From the IMG/VR virus record IMGVR_UViG_3300017989_004886: a stretch of DNA of 64,000 nt. The stretch is one strand, 5' to 3'. The position numbers were made by a program, and so were the translations under genes. Source of the DNA: a virus. Shown piece after piece: positions 1 to 62,436 of the stretch. Position 1 is the first letter of the stretch; every line of letters begins with the position of its first letter. The notes under the pieces are model-generated. The model was not told the DNA's origin. It saw only the letters and a list, made by a program, of their open reading frames with translations, and ran no database searches.

Positions 1-561
1 CAAATCAGACAAATCACTTTTAAAAGAAATAACCGAATCAATGATTATCTCCATAAAACAAGTAGGTTTATCGTTAATTATTGTATAGACAATAATATCG
101 ATACAATCATAATTGGTCACAACAAACAATGGAAGACTGAGGTTAACTTAGGCCATATCAACAATCAAAACTTTGTTCAAATACCATTTACTAAGTTAAT
201 CAATATGCTGAAATACAAATCAGAAGAGGTCAATATTAGAGTAATCACAAATGAAGAGAGTTATACTAGCAAGTGTAGCTTTCTTGACAATGAAGAAGTT
301 TGTAAACATAAAACTTATCTAGGCAAAAGAATCACTAGAGGCCTCTTCAAATCATCCAAGGGTGTTAAGATTAACTCAGATGTTAATGGTAGTTTGAATA
401 TAGCTAAGAAAGTAGTCACCAAGACTGGTTCAGATTCTAAAGTAGTCATCAAAGATAGTGGCGTTAAGCCAAGATCGGAGGTGATAGAGGGTGCTGCGCT
501 TCACCCTATTAGGGTTTACCCTGATAAATCAAATTTAATAAAGTTACTGAATGCTATTTAG
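1..561 (+). CDS. tnpB: TnpB-family RNA-guided nuclease, 5'-partial (TnpB-A)
   Basis: Frame open from base 1 (QIRQITFKRNNRINDYLHKTSR..IIIGHN..NNQNFVQIPF); EESYTSKCS, KRITRGLF and NSDVNGSLNI motifs. Confidence 0.9.
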   Translation, partial: QIRQITFKRNNRINDYLHKTSRFIVNYCIDNNIDTIIIGHNKQWKTEVNLGHINNQNFVQIPFTKLINMLKYKSEEVNIRVITNEESYTSKCSFLDNEEVCKHKTYLGKRITRGLFKSSKGVKINSDVNGSLNIAKKVVTKTGSDSKVVIKDSGVKPRSEVIEGAALHPIRVYPDKSNLIKLLNAI

Positions 562-34047: not shown

Positions 34048-34098
34048 GTGAGATCACATTAGCTAAAGCACATGGCTTTCTTTGTTTTGATCATGTAA
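34048..34098 (-). repeat. Copy of IS200/IS605-like right end (48/51 identical to 49160-49210)
   Basis: GATCAAAACAAAGAAAGCCATGTGCTTTAGCTAATG..ATCTCAC at both loci. Confidence 0.85.
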
Positions 34099-34128
34099 AC
34101 TGCGGATTTAATGAATCATTTTAAAATT

Positions 34129-48958: not shown

Positions 48959-49397
48959 TATTGACCAAATGTATCTTTAAATGCTTCGTGAAGTACATTA
49001 AATTCTATTACAGTGAGTCTATTTTTAAGACGATTTAAAATCTTCTTTTTAATGTGATACTCTTTCATTTCTTTTTGATAAATTTCTAGCACTTGAGTGC
49101 GATACCAAGCAACAAACAACTTTTTCAGCCAACAACCTGTGCCAGAACAACTCCTACAAGTGAGATACCATTAGCTAAAGCACATGGCTTTCTTTGTTTT
49201 GATCTTGTAATTTGATTCATAAAAGCATGTTCCCCAAGCCCAGGTTGAAAAGATAGAGAGGTAATCTTACCATATCCGTCACAGTGAACACAAGGGTATT
49301 TACCATCTTTTGGAAGTCTTCCAAGACTTCTAAAAACACGAGCCTCTTCTAAATTTTTGTAGGTTTTCTGTGGTTTTTTAATTTTTAAAGCTTTCAT
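48958..49397 (-). pseudogene. DnaJ-type zinc-finger protein gene interrupted by a 101-bp element
   Basis: Removing 49160-49260 restores a 112-aa ORF with CVHCDGYG-KIT-CRSCSGTG. Confidence 0.8.
49160..49260 (-). mobile_element. Non-autonomous IS200/IS605-like mini-element
   Basis: Inserted 3' of TTAC, no clear target duplication, subterminal GC-TTTA-GC hairpin, ends TCAC. Confidence 0.75.
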
Positions 49398-50083: not shown

Positions 50084-51169
50084 AATCAAAAGGCAGGAAG
50101 ATGCAAGCTAAGCTATGAGCCCTAAGGCTCATAGTCCCGGTTATATCTCCCGGACACCCTCCTGTCTTTAAAATTGCACTCATTTTGTTTAGGTCCGAAG
50201 ACTGCTTTAAAATCTTCCCCAATAGATTTCCAATCTGAAGCAAGGGCTTCTTGATTTGTTCTATTTAAAATGCTATGGACATTTGGGTTGTGAAGGCCAC
50301 CCGAAAGATCAAAAAGCGAACCTATACCTTTAAAGAAATCTCTTATTTTCTGCATTATTTAAATCTCTTAAATTCTAACATTTATTTTACAAAGATTTAA
50401 CGTTTTAGCCAATGGAGATGTTCAGAAATCTCGTTTGCTTTAACAATCTTATGTGAACTCATCTCTTCGTATATGTGAGATCCCCAAACTCTAATAACTT
50501 CAACTATACCATCTAGATTAAGCCAAATAGAAAGTTTCTTCTTGTTGAGCCAAACTTCTAAAATTGTTTCTTTTTCCTCAGTGGTAGAGATGAAGAATTC
50601 TAAGTTCTCATCTTTTAAAATTTTCTGTATAATTTCTAACATTGTGAATCTCTGGTATTAGCCAAAATGTTAATGGTCAAATCATCGGATAAGTTGTATG
50701 TCCAGAATGAATAATTTGAAGACGCAAAGTGATAGAATGCACAGAGCCAAAAGGAAGTACAATAACAACCCCATTGTCTCCTTCGCGATAACAATCAAAT
50801 TTAATTTCTTCATCTATTCGAGCAAAATAACTTGCTAAAAAATTCTTAAGTTCTAAAATGAAAGATATATAGAAGGTTGGCTTCATTAGAAGACCTTCAT
50901 AGCGATTAAAAAACTCATTAAGATCTTTCTTGAATTTTTCTAAGCCTGCACTTAGAAAAATTTCATAACGAGCTTCAGGTGTTAAAGGATTTGGATTTTT
51001 AAGTGTGTTCACTGTCCAAATACCTTAAAAAAGCAGTTGCGATTTCTTTCTTTATCAAAAGGTGTGCTTCATGGTCGTTGAAATCACCAATACGATGTTT
51101 GGTTGCTTCTTATATGATTTCTTGGACTTCTTTTTTGATTTGTTCACGGTTCATGAATGCCCTCCTAAT

Positions 51170-51884: not shown

Positions 51885-52662
51885 GTGATCTTTAAAGTAA
51901 ATTAAAGCGATCTTTAACAACTTTACCATTTAAGATAATTAAATCAGCTTGATACTGTACTCTTGTTGGAAGATTTTTTAAAGACAACTTCGGGCCGGAT
52001 CTCGAATAAACTTTACAAGTTTTCATTTGAGCCTCTTTTTAATCTTTAAATTCTACAAAGGCGGCATCATGGTAGCCTTGTTTTAAAGCAGACTCTGAAA
52101 TAAGAATAATTCGTGAATTCTCGCACCAAATTTCTCTAGTTGAAACCTTGTCTAAAGTATAACCCATTTCTCTTAAAACTGATAAAAGCATTGGCTGAAT
52201 GAATGAGATTCTTTCCCAAATAGGAACCACACATACAATAGTTTCCTCGCCAAGACCAACCAAACCAGCAACTGTATGACAATCGTCAAAGGTTTTTCCA
52301 TTTCGACGAATACATGGATTTTTGTCTTGATGTAGTTGATCAAGATCAGTCTTCAATCTCATCCTCCTTTGAAGGAGCTCCGCCATGACCATTAGAACAT
52401 ACAATTCCAGATGGTGTTTTAAATTGGGATTCACCACAAACAGAACAGTGAGTGCCAGTGTAGTCTAAGGATAAAGAGGGTTCACCGGAAGCAAAATTAT
52501 GCTGATCTTTATCTAAATGCCATCTTTGAATAAACTTTGTGAGAAGAATATCAAACTCCCTACAAAAAGAACTTCGAACACTTGAAGTATACCTCAAAGC
52601 ATATTTTAATTCATCTAAAATCTGAACAAGTTGTTGATTCTTCTGGATTGGTTCTATATACA

Positions 52663-52971
52663 TTAATTGACTCTTTCAATATTCACAACCTTACCAAAAA
52701 CATTATTTATTGAAGTCCATCCATTCAAATGTCCTTTATTATTACCAATAAGAACCTGGCCTTTTCGAAGACCTTTAACTAAATGCAAATAATCATTCCC
52801 ATTCACGCGAACTAGTACAATGTCTCCTCGAGTTAAAGTTAGTGGGTCACATGGAACTAATGTTACATTATCTCCACTAGAAATCTTTGGTTCCATTGAA
52901 GAACCTTTAGGTTTTATTGCAATTGTTTGCCCATTTTTAAGTGCTTCAATTGCGTGAAGTGCCCAACTCAT
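52663..52971 (-). CDS. S24/S26 peptidase-like protein
   Basis: GSSMEP.I.SGD, RGDIVL, YLHLV. Confidence 0.75.
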   Translation of the reverse strand: MSWALHAIEALKNGQTIAIKPKGSSMEPKISSGDNVTLVPCDPLTLTRGDIVLVRVNGNDYLHLVKGLRKGQVLIGNNKGHLNGWTSINNVFGKVVNIERVN

Positions 52972-53218
52972 TTTTCTTTCTTATCCACCATCAACCCAAG
53001 TAGACTCAATACATACTCTTTAGATACTTTACTTGTGATGAACAAATCAAAAACGCAGTAACTTACAACAAAACAAAAAATAGTAGTTTCAGTTAATTTA
53101 GAAATTTCTGAAGTGATAGATACAAAATCTGCGACAGAATATTGGTTCTCATCTATTCGAACACTTAAATGTAGCCGCCGCAAGTTTTAATCTCTAAAAT
53201 ACTCTTTTGACCCATTTA

Positions 53219-53292
53219 TCGGGGCGACTGAATTTGAATCAGCGACCTCCTGGTCCCAAACCAGGCGCTCTGCCAAGCTGAGCTACGCCCCG
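53219..53292 (-). tRNA. tRNA-Pro(UGG)
   Basis: CGGGGCG acceptor; CCTGG-TTTGGGA-CCAGG. Confidence 0.92.
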
Positions 53293-53311
53293 TCTATAAC
53301 ATTATACAAAG

Positions 53312-53340
53312 AACAAGACCAGATGTTTACTGGTCTTATT
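53312..53340 (-). terminator. Terminator-like hairpin related to 57076-57107
   Basis: AAGACCAG/CTGGTCTT stem after ORF 53361-53624. Confidence 0.6.
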
Positions 53341-53360
53341 GAATGTTCGCTATTGAATGT

Positions 53361-53624
53361 TTAGTCTTCACCTGTGAAAACTTGTTCACCTTTTTGTTTT
53401 AGAACTGTATTATTATACCACATGGCCATGCCACGTACTGACGCGTCATTGCTTTTCATGGCTTTTTCAACGCAGGATTTACAAGGACCTTCAAAACCTT
53501 GCCGTTTGCAATATGTAGTGAATCTTCCTTCTTTAAGATCCTTAGGCCAACCATCATCTTTGGCTTTCTTAGATAATTGCTTTAAATTAAGAGCAATCTT
53601 TTTGAGTTCTCTAATGGGATTCAC
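53361..53624 (-). CDS. Small basic protein with N-terminal LKKIA motif
   Basis: MNPIRELKKIALNLKQLSKKA. Confidence 0.6.
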   Translation of the reverse strand: MNPIRELKKIALNLKQLSKKAKDDGWPKDLKEGRFTTYCKRQGFEGPCKSCVEKAMKSNDASVRGMAMWYNNTVLKQKGEQVFTGED

Positions 53625-53636
53625 TAGATAGATCTT

Positions 53637-54122
53637 TTAAAAATTTGAAAGACCCATTTGACGACGCTCTTCCATTCGCTCTTCATAATCAGATGGGACA
53701 TAGTAATCAATTTCCTTGGTTTCTTCTCTATCTATTTTTGTTTCTTCTTCGACCTCCTTAACCCAATTTTTGAAACCTTTGTCTATACCGTCTAAAATTT
53801 CTTCCGCGGATACTAAAATTGTCTCTTTTTCGCCTACAGTGTATATATTCGGATGATCATACGCCTCGAGTGGGTCATCACCGTAAGTTATTAAAGCATT
53901 TGTCCCTTCTTCTGATTCTATTGCTTCTTGAACTTCATCTGAAGTTACTTTTTTGCCTTCTGAAACATGATCGTCTTCCTGATAGAGGAAATACCACTGA
54001 TTGCCTCTTTTTACATATGTATGTGTACAAATAGGAGTATCAATAACAACCCAAGTTGTTTTGATTGGATCAAAATTTGCTAGCTGTGCAGCAAGTTTTT
54101 TAAGTGCCTTGATTGTATTCAT
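53637..54122 (-). CDS. Acidic protein with N-terminal LKKLA motif
   Basis: MNTIKALKKLAAQLA. Confidence 0.6.
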   Translation of the reverse strand: MNTIKALKKLAAQLANFDPIKTTWVVIDTPICTHTYVKRGNQWYFLYQEDDHVSEGKKVTSDEVQEAIESEEGTNALITYGDDPLEAYDHPNIYTVGEKETILVSAEEILDGIDKGFKNWVKEVEEETKIDREETKEIDYYVPSDYEERMEERRQMGLSNF

Positions 54123-54377
54123 TTAGGGACCCTTAAAATTACTCATTTAAAATAAGTATTAATGAATTATTAAAATAAAATCATGACTACACAGTTTCTT
54201 CTGGACCTATTTCTCTTTGCTCTTGAAAACCGCAATCAAAACATTGAATACCTAAAATCAAACAACCAAAGGATCTTTTGTTATCCTTGGTTTCTTTATA
54301 CTCTCGAAAACGTATTGTGCTAACAAGTTTTGAATTGCATTTTGAACACTTAAACCCTTCTTTCTGTTTGGGCATCT

Positions 54378-54833
54378 TTAACTTCCTTTGAAAGGTCGAA
54401 TTGTTTTTGTTTGAGCGCGTGTTTTCTTCAGGCGTCTGCGTGCTCGAATTTCTTTGCGAATCATCATTAGACGGCCAAGTATCTGATTACAAGGAGCACA
54501 CATCGTTCTGGTGTTATCTAAGTCACGTGAACCCATTTTTGCTTTGGGTTTGATATGGTCAACCGTGAATTCTATTAGTTTCGCTGTCCAACTATCTACT
54601 CCATAGAGAATAAGAACATGGCCTTCATTTTCTTTGTGGTAGTTTAAGGAAAAGTAGGGCGCTTTCAAACCACACAGATGACATTGTGTACCATTCTGCT
54701 TGAAAGATCTGAGTCTAAAAGAATTTCCTTTAACCTGTATGTTACCGATTTTAATCCATCTCACAGGGACCTGATCTAAGATCTCTTCGATCTCGTGATC
54801 TGAAATGTGTACTAGGTATTTTTTCTTGTTCAT
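54378..54833 (-). CDS. HNH endonuclease
   Basis: CHLC..TVDHIKPK..G..D..N...MC..CN. Confidence 0.85.
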   Translation of the reverse strand: MNKKKYLVHISDHEIEEILDQVPVRWIKIGNIQVKGNSFRLRSFKQNGTQCHLCGLKAPYFSLNYHKENEGHVLILYGVDSWTAKLIEFTVDHIKPKAKMGSRDLDNTRTMCAPCNQILGRLMMIRKEIRARRRLKKTRAQTKTIRPFKGS

Positions 54834-54837
54834 ATAA

Positions 54838-54910
54838 CTCGGGAGGAAGGGTTTGAACCTTCAACCTTCCGGGTCAAAGCCGGACGTTCTGCCAATTGAA
54901 CTACTCCCGA
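54838..54910 (-). tRNA. tRNA-Gln(UUG)
   Basis: TCGGGAG/CTCCCGA; TCCGG-CTTTGAC-CCGGA. Confidence 0.92.
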
Positions 54911-54964
54911 TCATCTTCTTTAGGAATCTCGCGATATTTAAGATTAAGTTAGGACACCAGACTT

Positions 54965-55102
54965 ACGCCTCGTCACCTAGGCAACTTCAAGAGAAGTTTG
55001 CTTTTGTTTGTTAGCAACATAAGCTACTAACTCACTCATCTTAACCCCACTTCTTTCAAAGTCAGGTAGCCTTATTCTCTTTGGGTTAGACGTAAACCCA
55101 CT
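54965..55102 (-). ncRNA. Putative omegaRNA scaffold of TnpB-B
   Basis: 138 nt colinear with 60321-60458; compensatory stem changes. Confidence 0.7.
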
Positions 55103-56353
55103 AGACAGTCGAGCAATGGCAAATTTGCCATTGCTTCCCTGCTTACTTTTGATTGCTATGTTAGCAGCCCCATTCACATCAGCATTGATTAGAGTGCCTT
55201 TAGAGGTCCCGAACAAACCTCTATGAATACGTTTACCTAGATAAGTAGTGTGTTTCTCTGGGTACTCTTCATCTAAGAAACTACACTTGGATGTGTAAGA
55301 CTCATCTTGAAAAATTAGTTCTAGACCATAGATTTGGCACTTGTGTTTAAGTTTTTGTTTGAAATTGGCGAATGGTATTTGTACAAAGTTTTGATTGTTG
55401 ATCTTACCTAGTTTGATACTTTGTTTGATCTCACTAGACCAGTCACCAATGATGATAGTGCCTATATCCTTTTGAGCACAATACTTGATAATATAGGAGA
55501 CCATTTGATTTAGATAGTTATTAATTTGATTCTTACGTTGTTGTGTTAGTCTGATTAGTCTTTTTGAACTCTTTTCTAGTTCAACTCCTTTCTTCTTTAA
55601 AGAGTTCTTGTGCTTGATGTAAACAGTCTTTAACTTTGCGGTTTGTTTGTTCCACCATCTGTTGATTGATTTGAGTTCTCGCCCATCCAGAATAAACGAA
55701 CGTCCAGATTGGCAATCCAAACAAGTGGCAAAGTTATCAAGACCACAATCTATACTTAAGAGATTTGATTTATCTAAGTTAAGATTAGTTTTTGATTCGT
55801 CATGTTCGTAAGTGATCGCTAGTTCAAAGTATTGAGCGTTGTTGTGTTGAATTATAGCTACTTGTTTGATTTTGCCTTTAAATTGTTTTTTAAATGAAAT
55901 CTTGATCTTGTAGTTAGTTTTTAGGTTATTTTCTCTACAGACTTGTTTTGATGGGTGAAAATAGAAATAAGTATCTGTAAAATTGAAACTCTTCGGTGAC
56001 AGATAGATATGATAATAACCATCTTTTGGAAGATAATGTGGCATTTTGACTTTACAGTGATAGTCACCTGATTTTTGTTTCTTCTTTAAAGCGAAGAATG
56101 ATCTAAAAGCCCAATCTATTCGAAGTTGGATGTGTGCTGCAACATCTGATTTCATCCTTTGTGTTTCTGGTAGTTGTTTTACTAAATTATGGCGAGCGTA
56201 CATACCTAAGAACTCACCATTATTAAAGAAATGTTGTCGCGTTATATAAAGAACTGAATTATAAAAATTTTTAGAATCTTTACACATTTGTTTAAGAAAT
56301 AGATAGTCCTGTTTTGATAATTTCCTAATCTGAATTTTTTGTGTAAGTATCAT
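54977..56353 (-). CDS. tnpB: TnpB-family RNA-guided nuclease (TnpB-B)
   Basis: SIDCG (RuvC-I), IIIGD, QDESYTSKCS, NADVNGAANI. Confidence 0.92.
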   Translation of the reverse strand: MILTQKIQIRKLSKQDYLFLKQMCKDSKNFYNSVLYITRQHFFNNGEFLGMYARHNLVKQLPETQRMKSDVAAHIQLRIDWAFRSFFALKKKQKSGDYHCKVKMPHYLPKDGYYHIYLSPKSFNFTDTYFYFHPSKQVCRENNLKTNYKIKISFKKQFKGKIKQVAIIQHNNAQYFELAITYEHDESKTNLNLDKSNLLSIDCGLDNFATCLDCQSGRSFILDGRELKSINRWWNKQTAKLKTVYIKHKNSLKKKGVELEKSSKRLIRLTQQRKNQINNYLNQMVSYIIKYCAQKDIGTIIIGDWSSEIKQSIKLGKINNQNFVQIPFANFKQKLKHKCQIYGLELIFQDESYTSKCSFLDEEYPEKHTTYLGKRIHRGLFGTSKGTLINADVNGAANIAIKSKQGSNGKFAIARLSSGFTSNPKRIRLPDFERSGVKMSELVAYVANKQKQTSLEVA

Positions 56354-56386
56354 ATCGATTATAATCGATAATTAGTAGAGTATTAA

Positions 56387-56459
56387 TGCTCCAGGAGGGA
56401 TTCGAACCCTCTTCTTCGGATCGAAAGTCCGAGATTTTATCCGATTAAACTACTGGAGC
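56387..56459 (-). tRNA. tRNA-Glu(UUC)
   Basis: GCTCCAG/CTGGAGC; TCGGA-CTTTCGA-TCCGA. Confidence 0.92.
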
Positions 56460-56461
56460 AT

Positions 56462-56818
56462 TCATAAAAATGGCTCCTCATCATCTAACTCTTCTATTTG
56501 TATTCCGCCTTCTCTTAACCATTTGGCAACTATGTGTCTGTGACAAAATTTATCCTTACCTTCATAACACAACAAAATAGCATCATTTCCTAGATCTTTA
56601 AGTACTTTTGTCGGCACAAAATTACGTTTTTTTATACATTCTAAATAGAGTTTTGTATACTCTTGTTCATTAATTTTACCTGATTTTAGATCTTTGACTA
56701 ACTGCATTGGTGGCCCAAGAAGAGGATAGTACTTACCTTTAAACCATTTTGGTTTTCCAGAAGTAATCGCGACTGCATTTGGATTATTTTTACTTTTAGC
56801 GAAGTATGATGTTTTCAT
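56462..56818 (-). CDS. DUF488-like protein
   Basis: TSYFA start; LLCYE....CHRHIVA.WL. Confidence 0.75.
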   Translation of the reverse strand: MKTSYFAKSKNNPNAVAITSGKPKWFKGKYYPLLGPPMQLVKDLKSGKINEQEYTKLYLECIKKRNFVPTKVLKDLGNDAILLCYEGKDKFCHRHIVAKWLREGGIQIEELDDEEPFL

Positions 56819-57075
56819 TTGATCTCGATTTCTACGACTCTTTTAATTGCTTTAATTTCTAATTCTTCAGCCCGAAAAACACGGTAATTTTCTAGCGTCC
56901 GGCTCTTGTCTTGCTCTAAACGATTTTTAATCCATCTGGAAGCAGCCTCTACATCCCCAAATTCTTTGATACCTTCACCATCATCATCCGCATAACCATC
57001 TGAATAATGAAGCAGGATGGTACTCATTTTATTTCCTTAAAAAGATGTTGATTATACAATTATTATTTTTACATT

Positions 57076-57107
57076 AAACAAGACCAGTAAACAAACTGGT
57101 CTTGTTT
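57076..57107 (-). terminator. Terminator hairpin, 13-bp stem
   Basis: AAACAAGACCAGT-N6-ACTGGTCTTGTTT. Confidence 0.7.
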
Positions 57108-57124
57108 GAATTTTATGTTATTAT

Positions 57125-57553
57125 TTAGAGTAGTGAATCCGAAATGATTTGCAATTTGTCTATAATATCTTGAGCGCCTTCCTTCGGATGGATAAACCAC
57201 TCTCCCGATTTAAGTTTAGCGATGAGATCAGTTAAAGTTATATTTTTGGTGTTATCGTTCATGTCAGCAAACTCTATCTCTATACTCTCACCATTGTCAG
57301 TATATCCATAAGCATCTGTATCAAAATGAGCAAAATATCCAGATTCGTAAATAGCCTGATTTGGATCACCCTCCTCTTTTAACGCTTCTTGAAAATCGAG
57401 ATCCTCAAATGTGCCTTTATCAACAAAACTTATGCCTGCAGGAGAACCGATTAGTTCTGCCAGATCGTTAATTAAGTCTGCTTTTTTTAGTATTTTAAGA
57501 TCGTTAGCTAACTTTTTGAGTTGCTCTACGTCTGCTTTTCTGATTGGGTTCAT
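57125..57553 (-). CDS. Acidic protein with N-terminal LKKLA motif
   Basis: MNPIRKADVEQLKKLANDLKILKKA. Confidence 0.6.
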   Translation of the reverse strand: MNPIRKADVEQLKKLANDLKILKKADLINDLAELIGSPAGISFVDKGTFEDLDFQEALKEEGDPNQAIYESGYFAHFDTDAYGYTDNGESIEIEFADMNDNTKNITLTDLIAKLKSGEWFIHPKEGAQDIIDKLQIISDSLL

Positions 57554-57571
57554 TTTTTTTCTCCAAACTAA

Positions 57572-58387
57572 CTACTCATGGGGACTTTCAGTAAAAATTT
57601 CTGATTCGCGTTCTTTATTAAAAGTTATTATTGGTAAACTTAATTCTGATCTACGTATCTTATTAATCTCTCGAGATAAATTAGGAGAAACTTTATCCCA
57701 AAAATCTGCAGGTGTTTTAGCATTAAACTTTGCATTTAATGCTTCCCAACTAGTCTCCTCCATATTAATATACTCAAGTAAAGTCTCTTTATTATGATGC
57801 ACCAAGCCTAAAACCCTATCAATTGCCGAGATCTTTGCGTCTAAATTTGAACCAAGCAGTTTGGGCTTATTTTGTTTAAACATATCCCAGGATCTTTTCC
57901 ATTGTCCTTTATTTTGTTGACCTCTAAAAAAAGGCTTTACATCATCTCTCTTATCCAAAACTTCATATAATTCATCGATTTCACTAAACGAAAGATCCAA
58001 ACTATTCAAATCCAAATCACCACAACCTACAAATTTACTAAGGTCAACATCTTCGGGTTGTTCATAAAGAGGCTTTTCAGAATTATAGAGCCTAACTCCA
58101 GCTTCTTTGTAGAGTTTTTGGTATAATGAAACACTGCCCCCTAGATCTTCCCAATACTCTAAACTTGGAACTCCATCTCCACCTATAAAAGATCTAACTG
58201 GATGATGTTGAAAAGTATATAAAAAAACGTCATAAATCTTAAGTGCAAAAGAATTAATTTCAGGCTCGAAGTATTCTTGTGTAAGGCTGCCTGAGATGGC
58301 ATAAAAATCATAGATATCCTGATTGGTAATTTTCCCACTAGACACCAAAAGATTCGCTAAACGATAAAGAAGAGAAATTGTTTTCAT
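57572..58387 (-). CDS. Hypothetical protein
   Basis: MKTISLLYRLANLL start after GGAAGGG. Confidence 0.55.
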   Translation of the reverse strand: MKTISLLYRLANLLVSSGKITNQDIYDFYAISGSLTQEYFEPEINSFALKIYDVFLYTFQHHPVRSFIGGDGVPSLEYWEDLGGSVSLYQKLYKEAGVRLYNSEKPLYEQPEDVDLSKFVGCGDLDLNSLDLSFSEIDELYEVLDKRDDVKPFFRGQQNKGQWKRSWDMFKQNKPKLLGSNLDAKISAIDRVLGLVHHNKETLLEYINMEETSWEALNAKFNAKTPADFWDKVSPNLSREINKIRRSELSLPIITFNKERESEIFTESPHE

Positions 58388-58400
58388 TTTCCCTTCCAAA

Positions 58401-58565
58401 CTATCTTAAGCGGCGTCCAAGACCCCTACCCTGGCCAAGACCTCTCCCATAACCATAACCCCGACCTGGACCATAACTAGGGCCTCTCCTTCTAACGCAT
58501 GGGCCTAAACCACGTCCTGTTCCTGGGCCTGTTCCTCGCGGGCCTGTACGATCTCTTGCTGGCAT
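58401..58565 (-). CDS. Gly/Arg-rich DUF5320-like small protein (54 aa, not in ORF track)
   Basis: MPARDRTGPRGTGPGTGRGLGPC..GRGYGYGRGLG; AGGAGG RBS. Confidence 0.75.
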   Translation of the reverse strand: MPARDRTGPRGTGPGTGRGLGPCVRRRGPSYGPGRGYGYGRGLGQGRGLGRRLR

Positions 58566-58835
58566 TTTGACCTCCTATTTAAGTGTTTAATAAAAGATTA
58601 TTAGTAAATTATAGAATGAAAGGTATTTCTAAGTTTTGTTTTGCTTTCTCTAAAGCTTGGTCTAGATTCTTTGATTTCCAGGGCATTGTATTGCCGAAAG
58701 CCTCTCTTAACTTTGATTTTATAAACTTTTCGTTTTCATGAGGTTTTGAACCTCTTGTGAGTCTCCTTGGTATCCTTAACCTTTGTCATTGAATTCTCCT
58801 CCAAAAATAGGAAACATTACAAAACTAACTTTTCT

Positions 58836-58957
58836 ATTATACAAAATGAATACTTAAAAGTTTATTTATTTATCACTTTTTTATTAATTAAGACGGGCTT
58901 CAGAAATTTCTAAGATCTGGAAATTAGTTTCTACTTTAATTATACAAAATGAATACT
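58836..58957 (-). promoter_or_regulatory. Two identical 19-nt copies of a -10-containing element
   Basis: AGTATTCATTTTGTATAAT at 58836-58854 and 58939-58957. Confidence 0.6.
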
Positions 58958-59033
58958 AAAAGTTAATATAATTAACGTTCTAATAATTTACTAATTGGTT
59001 CTTATTTATGAATTAATAAAAGAGATAAAAATA

Positions 59034-60446
59034 ATGTATCTTGCACTTAAATCACAGATCAGAAAACTTAGTAAACAAGACTACCTCATCATCAAACAAA
59101 TGTGTAGAGATTCAAAAGATCTCTACAACAAATCTTTATACGAAGTCAGACAACACTTCTTTAAAACAAGTGGTCATCTCACCTACTTCTCAAGATACAA
59201 ACAGATGAAAAATCTTTCGTCTGTTAAGAGAATGAAGTCAGACTTTAGCATGCATGTACAACAAAGAGTTGATTTTGCCTTCAAATCATTCCTTGCTCTT
59301 GATAAAATGGCAAGAAATGGTGAGTATGATAAGGAAAAAGTAAATATACCACACTATCTACCCAAAGATGGTTATTATAACTTGTTTATGTCTCCGAAAA
59401 GTATTGGTTTTGATAGTGAGTATTTCTATTTTCACCCTACAAGTTATATCTGTAAAGATCTTCTATTGTCTCAGAAATACAAGATCAAAATACCTTTCAC
59501 CAAAAAAATAGAAGGTATAATCAAAGAAGTTCAGATCATACCTAAAAATAATGCTCGTTACTTCGAACTCTTAATCACCTATGAATATGATGAATCTAAA
59601 ACTAATCTTAAACTAAATAAAGATAATCTTCTAAGTATCGATCTTGGGCTAGATAACCTTGCCACTTGTCTTGATCTACAGTCTGGGCGATCATTTATTC
59701 TGGATGGTCGAAAACTCAAATCACTTAACAGATGGTGGAACAAAGAGGTGGCAAGGTTAAGAGGCATCTATGAAAAACAAAAGAATAGTCAAAAGAAGAA
59801 AGGAGAGAAAGTTCAGAAAAGTTCTAAACAACTTGATCGGTTGAGTAAGTGGAGAAAGGGCCAGATAGGTAATGCTCTCAACCAAATGGTGGCTCATGTT
59901 ATCAAGTACTGTGCAAGTCATAACATAGGTACTATTGTCATAGGTGACTGGAAAGGCATTAAAGATGGTATTCAGATGAGACATGAAACTAAACAAAACT
60001 TTGTCCAGTTACCCTACAACTTGTTCAAACAGAAACTCTACTCCAAATGTCAAATGTTTGGACTTGGCTGTGAGTTTCAAGAAGAGAGTTATACTTCTAA
60101 GTGTAGCTTTCTTGAGCAAGAAAAGATCTGTAAACACAAGAAATATATGGGCAAGAGAATTTATAGAGGCTTGTTCAGAACCTCTAAAGGCATTCACATC
60201 AACTCAGATGTGAATGGTGCAGGTAACATAGGTGTCAAGTTCTTGTTAAATCAAAAACAAAGTCAAGATCTAAAACAACGTATGCGAGGAGATCGGGTCA
60301 TTGATCCGATTGAACTGAGTAGTGGGCTTGCGCTTAGCCCAAAGAGAATAAGGCTACCTGACTTTGAAAAGAGCCAGGTTAAGATGAGTGAGTTAGTGGC
60401 TTTGGTTGCTAATGAACAAAAGCAAACTTCTCTTGAAGTTACTTAG
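59034..60446 (+). CDS. tnpB: TnpB-family RNA-guided nuclease (TnpB-C), paralog of TnpB-B
   Basis: SIDLG, IVIGD, QEESYTSKCS, NSDVNGAGNI; start at MYLAL aligns with TnpB-B. Confidence 0.92.
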   Translation: MYLALKSQIRKLSKQDYLIIKQMCRDSKDLYNKSLYEVRQHFFKTSGHLTYFSRYKQMKNLSSVKRMKSDFSMHVQQRVDFAFKSFLALDKMARNGEYDKEKVNIPHYLPKDGYYNLFMSPKSIGFDSEYFYFHPTSYICKDLLLSQKYKIKIPFTKKIEGIIKEVQIIPKNNARYFELLITYEYDESKTNLKLNKDNLLSIDLGLDNLATCLDLQSGRSFILDGRKLKSLNRWWNKEVARLRGIYEKQKNSQKKKGEKVQKSSKQLDRLSKWRKGQIGNALNQMVAHVIKYCASHNIGTIVIGDWKGIKDGIQMRHETKQNFVQLPYNLFKQKLYSKCQMFGLGCEFQEESYTSKCSFLEQEKICKHKKYMGKRIYRGLFRTSKGIHINSDVNGAGNIGVKFLLNQKQSQDLKQRMRGDRVIDPIELSSGLALSPKRIRLPDFEKSQVKMSELVALVANEQKQTSLEVT

Positions 60447-60458
60447 GTGACATGGCGT
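60321..60458 (+). ncRNA. Putative omegaRNA scaffold of TnpB-C
   Basis: Colinear with 54965-55102; similarity extends past the stop codon. Confidence 0.7.
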
Positions 60459-62436
60459 CATATCTAACAACTAAAAAGAAGTAATCTCCATTGATTGCCA
60501 ATTCTCTTTTAAGATAGTCTCTTTTCTGTGCCTCTTTAAAATGAATAATGTTTTTATGTATGTGATTTGGGAAGACAAAATGGTGATAGCCGTGATACTC
60601 TACAATTAAATTTAATGTTTGAAGATAACCATCATACAGAAACTTGCGACCTGTTTCTGGATTTCGAATTTCATTAAAAGATTTTTCCTCTTTATAGGGC
60701 TGTCCAGTTATTTTAGAGATTAGTTCGAGGATCTGATGTTGTGTGACAAGATAACGTTTAGGTTTCAAACCTAAATGCTCCATTTCCCTTCTAATAATTG
60801 GGCAGCAGAGGTTTAAACCTTTAATTGCCTTCGGAACGAAAACATCTCCCTTCTCATCGAGATAGGGCTTGAAATCTTCAAGATTGAGGGTGATTAGTTT
60901 ACTTGGAGGTCCTACCCAATTAGGGTCTGATTTCGTTTCAATTATTTTTTGAGTTCTCTTATATATGCGTAGATCATCAAATTTAGTTAAACCCTTGCAC
61001 CAGGAAGTTTGGCCTTGACGACCTTTAGAGGTTTTCTCTATGCGTGGATCAGTCTCTTTTGTTAATCCTTTAGACCAGCCACCACTTTTCTTTTGTTTCT
61101 TTCGTATTTTAGATGAGACAAAATAAGAACCAGGGAACATTTTGCAGTAGTCTATTGTGGACATTTTATGTGTTTTAGTGATATGTGTGGCTAAGAATTG
61201 GCTTTTAAAATTACAATCGGATAGTTTACAATAGAGGTTACCATCTTTATCTTCCTCTCTAGAAATGCAATCATAACAAATGTTACCTAAAAGAAAATTT
61301 GGATCTTTTTGTTCTTGGCAAATAATGCAAAAATTAGCCTCTTCACATAAAATCTGTTGATCTGCTCTACGTTGTTTCACCTCCTCTAAACGATGATCAA
61401 TTATTGCACAATTAGGCAGCTTTCGTTCGATATAGTGTTTAGAATGGTACAGAGATTCATAATCTTCTGTGGTTAAATTATGGTTGAAGCGTAGGTGATC
61501 TTTAAGATTGTTTTTCGTTCTAAATGGAAATCCTGATTTAGTTGTACATCCTGGAACCTTGCATTCTACATAATCTATGCCTTCTTTTTTATCTTTCCAT
61601 TCTGCAAGATATTCCTCTTTAGCTATTACTTTTTTGCACTGTGAGCATAATAAAAAATGCTGAGTAGATGATTGATAAAGAGAAATCTCAAAAGACTTCT
61701 GACATCTTTCGCAAATGCCAGTCTTTGTTTTATCGTAGAAATCTGGGGGTCTGGAAGCACTGTCCTTCTGTATAGACTCTATGCGTTTTTCTTCCGTTTT
61801 TATAGCGATTGTTGGCGAATTATACTTAGAGGTGTAGTCTGAAATTGATATCTTGTGTACACTGGGTAAGTGGCGTCGTAGAGTCGTCATTCGGTATTCC
61901 GAAAAGTGCTTGCCTTCCCTCTTGCATATCTGACACTCTACATAGTCTATGTTAATGCGTTTATCTTCCCATTTCTTAGATTCTTCTTGATTAAAATAAT
62001 CTAAATGGGCTTGATCATTCTTTTTAAAAGCCATTCTTTTGATATGATTTGTGAGACCCTTAACATCTCGCACTCTAAGATTACATACTGGGCAGAATAT
62101 CTGTTCTTGTGATTTGTAATCTCTCTTTGATTTACATTTTGGGCATAGAACTTGTTTGAATCTTTTCATCTGAGATAAAGCAGATACAGTAGTAGAGAAA
62201 GTTTGATTACAGATCTGGCAGATGGTTGTTGTTTGTTTAGATGTTTTTTTCTTGCTGTGTTTCTTTCTCCTGGCATCTACATCTTCCTTTGGGTATTCTT
62301 TTTTAAAGAGAGATGTGACTACACTTATTTCGAGATCAAATTGTTCGGCTACTTTTCCTGCTGAGAGATCTGAGCGAAATAAATCTTTGATCGTCTGGTA
62401 TTCTTCTTTGGTGAGACGGTTAATTGAGTAGCGCAT
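60439..62436 (-). CDS. Multi-zinc-finger, NUMOD3-like, PD-(D/E)XK homing-type endonuclease
   Basis: Repeated YVEC..C..HL...H domains, WSKGLTKETD, LYDGY....LIVEYHG..H..RD..KR. Confidence 0.8.
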   Translation of the reverse strand: MRYSINRLTKEEYQTIKDLFRSDLSAGKVAEQFDLEISVVTSLFKKEYPKEDVDARRKKHSKKKTSKQTTTICQICNQTFSTTVSALSQMKRFKQVLCPKCKSKRDYKSQEQIFCPVCNLRVRDVKGLTNHIKRMAFKKNDQAHLDYFNQEESKKWEDKRINIDYVECQICKREGKHFSEYRMTTLRRHLPSVHKISISDYTSKYNSPTIAIKTEEKRIESIQKDSASRPPDFYDKTKTGICERCQKSFEISLYQSSTQHFLLCSQCKKVIAKEEYLAEWKDKKEGIDYVECKVPGCTTKSGFPFRTKNNLKDHLRFNHNLTTEDYESLYHSKHYIERKLPNCAIIDHRLEEVKQRRADQQILCEEANFCIICQEQKDPNFLLGNICYDCISREEDKDGNLYCKLSDCNFKSQFLATHITKTHKMSTIDYCKMFPGSYFVSSKIRKKQKKSGGWSKGLTKETDPRIEKTSKGRQGQTSWCKGLTKFDDLRIYKRTQKIIETKSDPNWVGPPSKLITLNLEDFKPYLDEKGDVFVPKAIKGLNLCCPIIRREMEHLGLKPKRYLVTQHQILELISKITGQPYKEEKSFNEIRNPETGRKFLYDGYLQTLNLIVEYHGYHHFVFPNHIHKNIIHFKEAQKRDYLKRELAINGDYFFLVVRYDAMSPK

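What the first reader, a model, noticed from the sequence alone, without database searches (positions are those of the whole stretch)
54945..60480. Two transposase-less TnpBs share a covarying scaffold but carry different guides
Seen: 138-nt tails align without gaps, with a compensatory change (TGGGTT..AACCCA versus TGGGCT..AGCCCA) and conserved hairpins TTAGTRGC/GTTGCTAA and AACTTC-TCTT-GAAGTT. Similarity stops after GGTGACnnGGCGT, followed by AAGTCTGGTGTCCTAACTTA or CATATCTAACAACTAAAAAG. No tnpA is in the window, and both genes follow the phage motif. Known: omegaRNA overlaps the tnpB 3' end and the flank is the guide. Inference: phage-controlled RNA-guided homing or inter-phage competition nucleases.
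Basis: partly seen in the sequence, partly recalled or inferred. Interest (0 to 1): 0.75.

Follow-up and report, generated by a model that had tools for sequence, protein, structure and literature searches.

The report
Phage-resident TnpB guide-RNA nuclease elements
An uncultured marine-sediment phage carries at least three diverged, intact copies of the RNA-guided nuclease TnpB, each with its own guide RNA and no transposase nearby. They are a known kind of selfish element that has probably adapted to spread between co-infecting phages.

Summary
Two full tnpB genes (54977-56353 minus; 59034-60446 plus; 60% aa identity) end in an ungapped 145-nt block that is 86% identical and stops exactly at GGTGACnnGGCGT. 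Unrelated flanks follow.

Across four copies (two here, two metagenome relatives) the block folds into a shared structure. 98% of cells pair, and five pairs carry compensatory changes. An extra 5' hairpin has four different sequences. Synonymous divergence drops 6-12-fold in the tail, while the protein body is under strong purifying selection (dN/dS 0.07-0.19).

The proteins are TnpB of the 'RuvC-II rearranged' class: glycine at the canonical glutamate, an alternative invariant glutamate, and no zinc finger. No Y1 or serine transposase was found among 64 window ORFs.

Both left ends carry the phage's own enriched promoter motif. Copy 2 is a roughly 1.7-kb insertion that splits a nuclease gene, and a relative keeps that gene intact. 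The copy-1 lineage sits at different sites in related phages.

Guided cleavage, the TAM and homing were not shown, and no empty site was recovered as DNA. My reading is an ordinary tnpB-omegaRNA unit in an unusual, phage-adapted setting. TnpA-independent homing between co-infecting phages is plausible but unproven. A third partial copy lies at 1-561.

The parts
54977..56353 (-). tnpB copy 1 (458 aa)
   Evidence: Pfam OrfB_IS605 5e-18 and TNB 4e-10. AF2 model pLDDT 84.5; Foldseek hits TnpB/Cas12f, TM 0.76 to 8H1J. dN/dS 0.075-0.12 against relatives.
56354..56386 (-). 33-nt left end of element 1, with a sigma70-like TTAATA-17-TATAAT and a variant of the phage motif, directly abutting the ATG
   Evidence: Similarity to L001 and L002 starts here. 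Promoter scan scores 10/12. Motif match at 56371-56383.
54965..55140 (-). omegaRNA-type scaffold of element 1, overlapping the last ~55 codons and 12 nt past the stop
   Evidence: Fold z-score -5.4. Consensus structure with 43 pairs. Stem A hairpin. dS falls from 1.4-2.9 to 0.20-0.27.
54945..54964 (-). predicted guide of element 1 (flank between the right end and tRNA-Gln)
   Evidence: Similarity between copies ends at 54965. The only match in the window is itself.
56386..56460 (-). tRNA-Glu(UUC) abutting the left end of element 1. A homologous tRNA-tnpB junction is present in L002.
54838..54910 (-). tRNA-Gln(UUG), 54 nt downstream of the right end of element 1
58749..59033 (+). long left part of insertion 2. 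It holds the phage motif at 58983-58995 facing tnpB2, and two direct repeats (58836-58858, 58939-58961) that read as sigma70-like promoters on the minus strand. The left boundary is uncertain by a few nt.
   Evidence: The split-gene junction places the left boundary near 58748. Repeats and promoter scan.
59034..60446 (+). tnpB copy 2 (470 aa from the ATG; the ORF from TTG 58995 is 483 aa)
   Evidence: Pfam. Alignment with homologues and the database gene call P0005 begin at this ATG.
60290..60458 (+). omegaRNA-type scaffold of element 2
60459..60478 (+). predicted guide of element 2. It is the reverse complement of codons ~654-660 (FFLVVRY) of the interrupted nuclease gene.
60457..62436 (-). 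N-terminal 660 codons of the interrupted zinc-finger/nuclease gene. The annotated ORF runs on to 60439 and takes its last ~5 codons from the element's right end.
   Evidence: Homologue P0123 (705 aa, 65% identity) aligns up to residue 660.
58612..58746 (-). stranded C-terminal ~45 codons of the same gene, without a start codon
   Evidence: tblastn of the P0123 C-terminus, 52% over 50 aa, E 3e-17.
1..561 (+). third tnpB, C-terminal half only (cut by the window edge), with an unrelated tail

Best explanation
Each unit is a compact, tnpA-less descendant of an IS200/IS605-type element living in a ~194-kb tailed phage. It consists of a promoter-bearing left end, tnpB, and an omegaRNA scaffold that overlaps the 3' end of the gene and ends at GGCGT.

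Inferred mechanism. The unit is transcribed from a promoter of the phage's own type. Copy 1 may also be read through from the tRNA cluster. TnpB trims its own transcript into a scaffold of about 170-200 nt plus a guide of about 16-20 nt copied from the adjacent phage DNA. The complex then cuts any co-resident DNA in which the left-flank motif (TAM) directly abuts the guide match. That configuration is the uninterrupted allele in a co-infecting relative, or in a genome copy that lost the element. Recombinational repair from an element-bearing genome copies the element in, together with nearby markers. Phage DNA is multicopy and recombines readily, so this works as a gene drive without a transposase.

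Shown: gene identity and fold, selection on the protein, RNA-level constraint and covariation, copy-specific flanks, insertion into a gene, and site polymorphism among relatives. Inferred: nuclease activity, the TAM, RNA processing and homing.
For: TnpB domains and fold. RuvC-I Asp202 and RuvC-III Asp392 are invariant in 27 homologues. Gly303 sits at the canonical RuvC-II position, and Glu351 is invariant at the end of the next strand. This matches the 'RIIr' rearranged class, which is predicted to stay active (PMC10691335). Body dN/dS is 0.07-0.19 with saturated dS, so the proteins are maintained. In the tail, dS drops to 0.20-0.36. The share of identical codons at conserved residues is 0.88 in the tail against 0.54 in the body, Fisher p = 1e-4. 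The consensus structure has 98.3% of cells paired and five compensatory pairs, against 2.0 in shuffles; slid controls pair at 36-50%. Stem A is kept with four different sequences. Copy 2 splits a gene that is intact in P0123, and its guide is the continuation of that gene. The copy-1 lineage (79-81% identity) lies next to a homologous tRNA in L002, but at another position in the syntenic relative L001. No transposase was found in the window. The phage promoter motif is in all four left ends and elsewhere in all three phages. TnpA-independent spread of a tnpB element through a multicopy replicon has been shown for plasmids (PMC11870625), and homing into co-infecting phages has been proposed (PMC13565253).
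Against: No empty site was recovered as DNA, so TAM plus guide adjacency is untested. The candidate left-flank motifs disagree between element types..GCATT / ..TGATT(AA) for type 1 against ..TTTTG or ..TGAAC for copy 2. The canonical RuvC-II glutamate and the zinc finger are absent, so activity rests on analogy with a predicted class. Only 64 kb of about 194 kb was searched for tnpA. IS608-type mini-elements in the window show that a Y1 transposase has acted on this lineage. Copies within the genome are only 50-60% identical, so there is no sign of recent spread.
Confidence: 0.55

Rival explanations
1. These are ordinary non-autonomous IS200/IS605 elements. The ends are recognised and moved in trans by a Y1 TnpA encoded elsewhere in the phage or in the host. 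TnpB plays only its canonical role of restoring the element after excision.
For: Solo tnpB is common in prokaryotes. The window and L002 contain hairpin mini-elements of IS608 type. Only a third of the genome was searched. The copy-1 lineage occupies different sites in related phages.
Against: The type-1 left end is only 33 nt, is filled by a promoter, and carries only a short ATCGAT-TATA-ATCGAT palindrome. The mini-elements share no sequence with the tnpB ends. Paralogues are 50-60% identical, not the near-identical copies of an active IS. No close relative was found in 185,579 species genomes with the family-specific peptide patterns. The nearest named cellular proteins are about 41-45% identical.
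Confidence: 0.25
2. These are domesticated phage tools. The guides are fixed and aimed at a competitor phage, a host gene or a defence locus, for cleavage or repression as with TldR.
For: Phage-type promoter in the left end. Long-term purifying selection. Phage-encoded TnpB derivatives with regulatory roles are known.
Against: Both guides are simply the DNA next to the insertion. For copy 2 it is the interrupted gene itself. Related copies carry unrelated guides. No second match was found in the window, L001, L002 or IMG/VR. The catalytic Asp residues are kept, unlike TldR.
Confidence: 0.1
3. These are inert relics of old insertions with no present activity.
For: No transposase nearby. The canonical RuvC-II glutamate and the zinc finger are lost.
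Against: The reading frames are intact in four copies, with dN/dS 0.07-0.19 at saturated dS. Independent RNA-level constraint and compensatory changes are present. The Gly/Glu arrangement is invariant across 27 homologues rather than decayed.
Confidence: 0.05

Closest known systems
IS200/IS605 TnpB-omegaRNA (OMEGA) systems, e.g. ISDra2 (PMC8612924; homing role in 10.1101/2023.03.14.532601)
   Same: Same domains and fold. The scaffold RNA overlaps the 3' end of tnpB and ends at the right transposon end. The guide is the adjacent flank.
   Different: No tnpA was found. The type-1 left end is reduced to a 33-nt promoter. The canonical RuvC-II Glu is replaced by Gly and the zinc finger is lost. 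Sequence identity to solved TnpBs is 14-17% in the Foldseek matches (8H1J, 8EXA, 8IAZ). The elements reside in a phage and carry a phage-type promoter.
RuvC-II-rearranged TnpB branches (RIIr) of Altae-Tran et al. 2023 (PMC10691335), some enriched in viruses
   Same: Glycine at the canonical glutamate position. A conserved alternative glutamate on the following strand. The zinc finger is lost in some branches.
   Different: Assignment to a particular RIIr branch was not tested, because no tree with their representatives was built. That paper gives no phage-specific biology for them.
TnpB-driven gene drive of IS200/605 in multicopy plasmids (PMC11870625), and the proposed 'transposon non-restorative homing' into co-infecting phages (PMC13565253)
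   Same: Same logic: the guide records the insertion site, element-free copies are cut, and element-bearing copies win without TnpA.
   Different: That was shown for plasmids with a canonical IS. Here the replicon is a phage and nothing has been tested experimentally.
Free-standing homing endonuclease genes of T4-like phages (SegB in the tRNA cluster; Seg/Mob marker exclusion)
   Same: Position inside a tRNA cluster, next to an HNH gene. A shared tRNA-nuclease module in otherwise unrelated contexts resembles co-conversion islands.
   Different: Recognition would be by RNA guide rather than by protein. Co-conversion is inferred from a single shared junction.
TldR, phage-encoded nuclease-dead TnpB transcription factors (10.1101/2023.11.30.569447)
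   Same: A phage-borne tnpB relative with an omegaRNA and no transposase.
   Different: The two catalytic aspartates and a candidate glutamate are kept. The guides are local flanks, not host promoter matches.

Membership tests
TnpB / OMEGA RNA-guided nuclease | OrfB_IS605 (RuvC-like) plus TNB domains and the TnpB/Cas12f fold | tested here: met
   Pfam scores are above the cut-offs for both copies. A profile hits Cas12f/TnpB chains. The AF2 model matches 8H1J, 8EXA and 8IAZ.
TnpB / OMEGA RNA-guided nuclease | Canonical RuvC D-E-D catalytic triad | tested here: inconclusive
   Asp202 and Asp392 are invariant. The canonical Glu aligns with invariant Gly303 (IGDW). Glu351 (ESYTSK) is invariant and lies at the end of the next beta strand. 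This fits the rearranged class of PMC10691335. Distances in the model could not be measured.
TnpB / OMEGA RNA-guided nuclease | C4 zinc finger between RuvC-II and RuvC-III | tested here: not met
   Only Cys357 and His368 are conserved in that stretch. Loss of the finger in some branches is described in PMC10691335.
TnpB / OMEGA RNA-guided nuclease | Structured RNA scaffold overlapping the 3' end of the gene, ending at the right end and followed by a variable guide | tested here: met
   There is no Rfam family for it.
TnpB / OMEGA RNA-guided nuclease | Defined TAM on the left flank and guided DNA cleavage | not testable with these tools
   Left flanks of four copies were compared and no consistent motif emerged. 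A cleavage assay is needed.
Autonomous IS200/IS605 or IS607 insertion sequence | Adjacent tnpA (Y1 HUH or serine recombinase) | tested here: not met
   No PF01797 or PF00239 hit among 64 ORFs of 85-300 aa. The flanks are a tRNA on one side and a split gene on the other. The rest of the genome is unavailable.
Autonomous IS200/IS605 or IS607 insertion sequence | Subterminal hairpins at both ends and several near-identical copies | tested here: not met
   The type-1 left end is 33 nt with only a 6-bp palindrome. The copies are 50-60% identical in protein.
IStron (group I intron plus IS605) | Group I intron RNA around tnpB | tested here: not met
   No intron family was found at the gathering or E-value thresholds.
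TldR-type domesticated TnpB | Inactivated RuvC site and a guide matching a host promoter | tested here: not met
   The aspartates are kept. The guides are insertion flanks.

The most novel reading that the evidence does not exclude
This is a phage-lineage-specific family of RuvC-II-rearranged TnpBs that has given up transposase altogether and persists purely as an RNA-guided gene drive between co-infecting phages. It has taken on the phage's own promoter, and in copy 2 it carries outward-facing promoters that restore expression of the genes downstream of the insertion. In copy 1 it uses flanking tRNA processing to release its mRNA and guide RNA. If so, RNA-guided nucleases would be a second, programmable class of phage homing endonuclease that shapes mosaicism around tRNA clusters and nuclease genes.
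Probability: 0.3. Interest if true: 0.7.

Novelty: new member of a known kind. Interest (0 to 1): 0.45.

Why it matters
tnpB genes are often noted in large phage genomes but are usually left as 'transposase'. Here the anatomy can be read in full: promoter, gene, scaffold, guide, one interrupted target whose intact allele is known, and strong selection on both protein and RNA. That makes this lineage a concrete test case for whether TnpB can act as a transposase-independent homing endonuclease among phages. In the library searched, this idea was found demonstrated only for plasmids and only proposed for phages. It also supplies two natural scaffold/guide pairs for a little-studied rearranged-active-site TnpB class.

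Tried and rejected
DNA around P0003, P0004, P0006, P0007 and P0123, and the rest of the 194-kb contig, could therefore not be fetched.
- No whole genome is held for the window, and the records behind L001 and L002 are not searchable.
- The INPHARED megablast found only tRNA fragments.
- IMG/VR has no relative of the tnpB or of the split gene. The 30 hits to a 16-nt scaffold word were chance matches without tnpB.
- GTDB genomes gave no relative with the family patterns.
- The guides have no exact match in IMG/VR.
- Rfam has no family for the scaffold.
- Single-sequence phmmer against the PDB found nothing. A profile was needed.
- Laying Logan contigs of four runs showed the phage at about 15x depth. 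No joint appeared at the element boundaries. Contigs drop rare variants, so this says nothing about absence.
- I considered that the L001 element splits one gene ('up' plus 'dn', which would be in frame). I rejected this because homologues of 'up' are complete at 83-85 aa.
- I considered the window site 51110 as an empty site for the L001 guide. It matches 13 of 16 nt and is preceded by ATATAA. Its left flank is different DNA, so it is not a true empty site.
- I considered an IStron and rejected it, because no intron RNA was found.
Full report
**What is there.** The window is part of an uncultured tailed phage. It has a tail sheath gene, many structural ORFs on the minus strand and 8 tRNAs, with GC about 36%. 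The protein database places its genes on a contig of 194,034 bp. Four public runs from sediment and seawater metagenomes hold the stretch at about 15x depth. No close relative exists in INPHARED or IMG/VR.

Two full tnpB genes lie at 54977-56353 (minus, 458 aa) and 59034-60446 (plus, 470 aa). Both match Pfam OrfB_IS605 and Cas12f1-like_TNB and are 60% identical. A third, more distant tnpB is cut by the window edge at 1-561. A 518-nt contig about 86% identical to part of copy 1 tracks the phage's depth in all four runs. This suggests a further copy outside the window.

**The observation.** The 3' ends align without gaps for 145 nt at 86% identity, against 64% for the rest of the gene. Similarity stops exactly after GGTGACnnGGCGT.

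A metagenome scan recovered two relatives: L001 (79% protein identity) and L002 (81%). With four sequences the consensus fold has 43 pairs, and 98.3% of cells are paired. Five pairs changed on both sides, against 2.0 +/- 1.1 in shuffles (4 of 500 shuffles reach five). Slid controls pair at 36-50%.

A further hairpin just 5' of TAGTGGG is formed by four different sequences. Both substitutions in L002 would break it, whereas they preserve a long-range AAGAGAA/TTCTCTT helix and a GTTRC/GTGAY terminal stem.

Independent of any fold, synonymous divergence collapses in the last 48 codons. dS is 0.20-0.36 there against 1.4-2.9 in the body. Identical codons at conserved residues are 0.88 against 0.54, Fisher p = 1e-4. 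This is the signature of an RNA constraint laid over the coding sequence. No Rfam family matches it.

**The protein.** The body evolves under strong purifying selection (dN/dS 0.07-0.19). An AlphaFold model (pLDDT 84.5) matches Cas12f and TnpB structures. In a 27-sequence alignment the RuvC-I and RuvC-III aspartates (Asp202, Asp392) are invariant. The canonical RuvC-II glutamate, however, aligns with an invariant glycine (IGDW). An invariant glutamate (Glu351, ESYTSK) closes the next strand, and the C4 zinc finger is absent. This is the arrangement described for the 'RuvC-II rearranged' TnpB branches. Those are predicted to keep activity through an alternative glutamate, and some are enriched in viruses (PMC10691335). 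Activity is therefore plausible but rests on that analogy.

**Boundaries and context.** For the copy-1 type, similarity among the window, L001 and L002 begins 33 nt before the ATG (TTAATAC...) and ends at GGCGT. Those 33 nt read as TTAATA-17-TATAAT with the ATG 4 nt behind. They contain a variant of the motif ATWNTTYACTAAT.

That motif is enriched in the window (13 matches against 4.9 expected, none of 100 shuffles reaching 13). It lies upstream of many minus-strand genes and of both tnpB genes in the sense orientation. It also precedes genes in L001 and L002. The element therefore carries a promoter of the kind used by this phage group.

Copy 1 sits between tRNA-Glu and tRNA-Gln, and an HNH gene follows. 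In L002 the same tRNA-tnpB junction is present, although the tRNA there has a CUA anticodon. The remaining 20 kb of L002 shows no similarity to the window. L001 is syntenic with window 51109-37305. There the element lies elsewhere, directly behind the stop codon of an 85-aa gene, where the window has two tRNAs. One element lineage thus occupies at least two sites in related phages.

**Copy 2 is an insertion into a gene.** The convergent 665-aa ORF (zinc fingers plus a PD-(D/E)xK-like C-terminal region) aligns with a 705-aa homologue, P0123 (65% identity), only up to residue 660. Its last five codons are read from the element's right end.

The missing ~45 codons lie at 58746-58612 on the same strand, without a start codon (52% identity over 50 aa, E 3e-17). 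About 1.7 kb (roughly 58749-60458) is therefore inserted DNA. It comprises a 285-nt left part, tnpB2 and the scaffold. The left part holds two repeated sigma70-like promoters facing outward and the phage motif facing tnpB2.

The predicted guide (60459-60478) is the reverse complement of codons ~654-660 (FFLVVRY), a conserved part of the interrupted gene. This is what the OMEGA logic predicts. An intact allele exists in nature, though I could see it only as protein.

**What could not be settled.** No tnpA was found among 64 ORFs of 85-300 aa, but two thirds of the genome were out of reach.

The TAM is unresolved. Type-1 left flanks read ..GCAT / ..TGAT before T-TAATAC. Frame continuity at copy 2 suggests ..TTTTG or ..TGAAC.

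The guides match nothing else in the window, the two loci or IMG/VR. Contigs of the four runs showed no element-less joint, which is uninformative.

Earlier notes of this scan describe IS608-type mini-elements at 49160 and 34048. I saw them, and also a copy in L002. A Y1 transposase has therefore acted on this lineage, and mobilisation in trans is not excluded. Those mini-elements share no sequence with the tnpB ends.

**Reading.** These are genuine tnpB-omegaRNA units of a known kind, maintained by selection on both protein and RNA. They are resident in, and transcriptionally adapted to, a phage lineage. The most likely mode of persistence is RNA-guided cutting of element-free alleles during co-infection or replication, followed by recombinational copying.

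That mechanism has been shown for TnpB in bacteria (10.1101/2023.03.14.532601) and, without TnpA, in multicopy plasmids (PMC11870625). It has been proposed for phages (PMC13565253). I found no paper in the library that demonstrates it for phages. I put about 0.55 on this reading. Trans-mobilised ordinary IS gets 0.25, a domesticated tool 0.1 and inert relics 0.05.

The finding is real and well built, but it is a new member of a known kind rather than a new mechanism.

Noticed in passing
window 1-561 (+): A third tnpB, C-terminal half only, about 50% identical to the other two. It has an unrelated tail and ends against a convergent 334-aa ORF (554-1558). Its scaffold and guide were not defined.
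   Followed up: partly
window 55648-56162 (Logan contigs): A 518-nt contig about 86% identical to parts of tnpB1 tracks the phage's depth in all four runs. It is probably a further tnpB1-like copy elsewhere in the genome, or in a co-occurring close relative.
   Followed up: no
L002 9894-9968 and 13366-13711: The tRNA next to tnpB in L002 is homologous to the window's tRNA-Glu, with compensatory acceptor-stem changes, but it has a CUA anticodon (an amber suppressor type). ARAGORN also calls a tmRNA 3.4 kb downstream. That phage may read TAG as sense.
   Followed up: no
window 51017-51153 (-): A small ORF (MNREQIKKEVQEII) ends in TAA and is directly followed, in frame, by a stretch with no start codon. 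That stretch is 71% identical in protein to the DNA right of the L001 element and differs mostly at synonymous sites. How it is translated is unclear. In L001 a GTG with a Shine-Dalgarno-like AAAGG inside the element's right end could start it.
   Followed up: partly
window 58740-58754 (+): A perfect 6-bp inverted repeat, GAGGTT-TTG-AACCTC, straddles the inferred left junction of insertion 2. It may be chance or related to how the element entered.
   Followed up: no
window 58836-58858 and 58939-58961: Two direct repeats (ATTATACAAAATGAATACT..) inside the left part of insertion 2 read as sigma70-like promoters on the minus strand. They point at the stranded gene fragment and the downstream 54-aa and 275-aa genes, and could offset the polar effect of the insertion.
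   Followed up: partly
L002 9815-9859; window 49168-49210 and 34057-34101: The IS608-type hairpin mini-element noted earlier in this scan also occurs in L002, about 35 nt upstream of the tRNA-tnpB module (87-88% identity).
   Followed up: partly
window 52059 / 58831 (Logan contigs): Low-depth contigs in three runs join 52059 to 58831, skipping 6.8 kb that includes tnpB1 and its tRNAs. Only 21 nt lie on the shorter side, so this may be a repeat artefact or another strain.
   Followed up: no
window, ORFs of 85-300 aa: Besides tnpB, the window encodes GIY-YIG, HNH and DUF559-type nucleases and a KptA/Tpt1 RNA 2'-phosphotransferase. This is a high load of homing-type nuclease genes around the tRNA cluster.
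   Followed up: no
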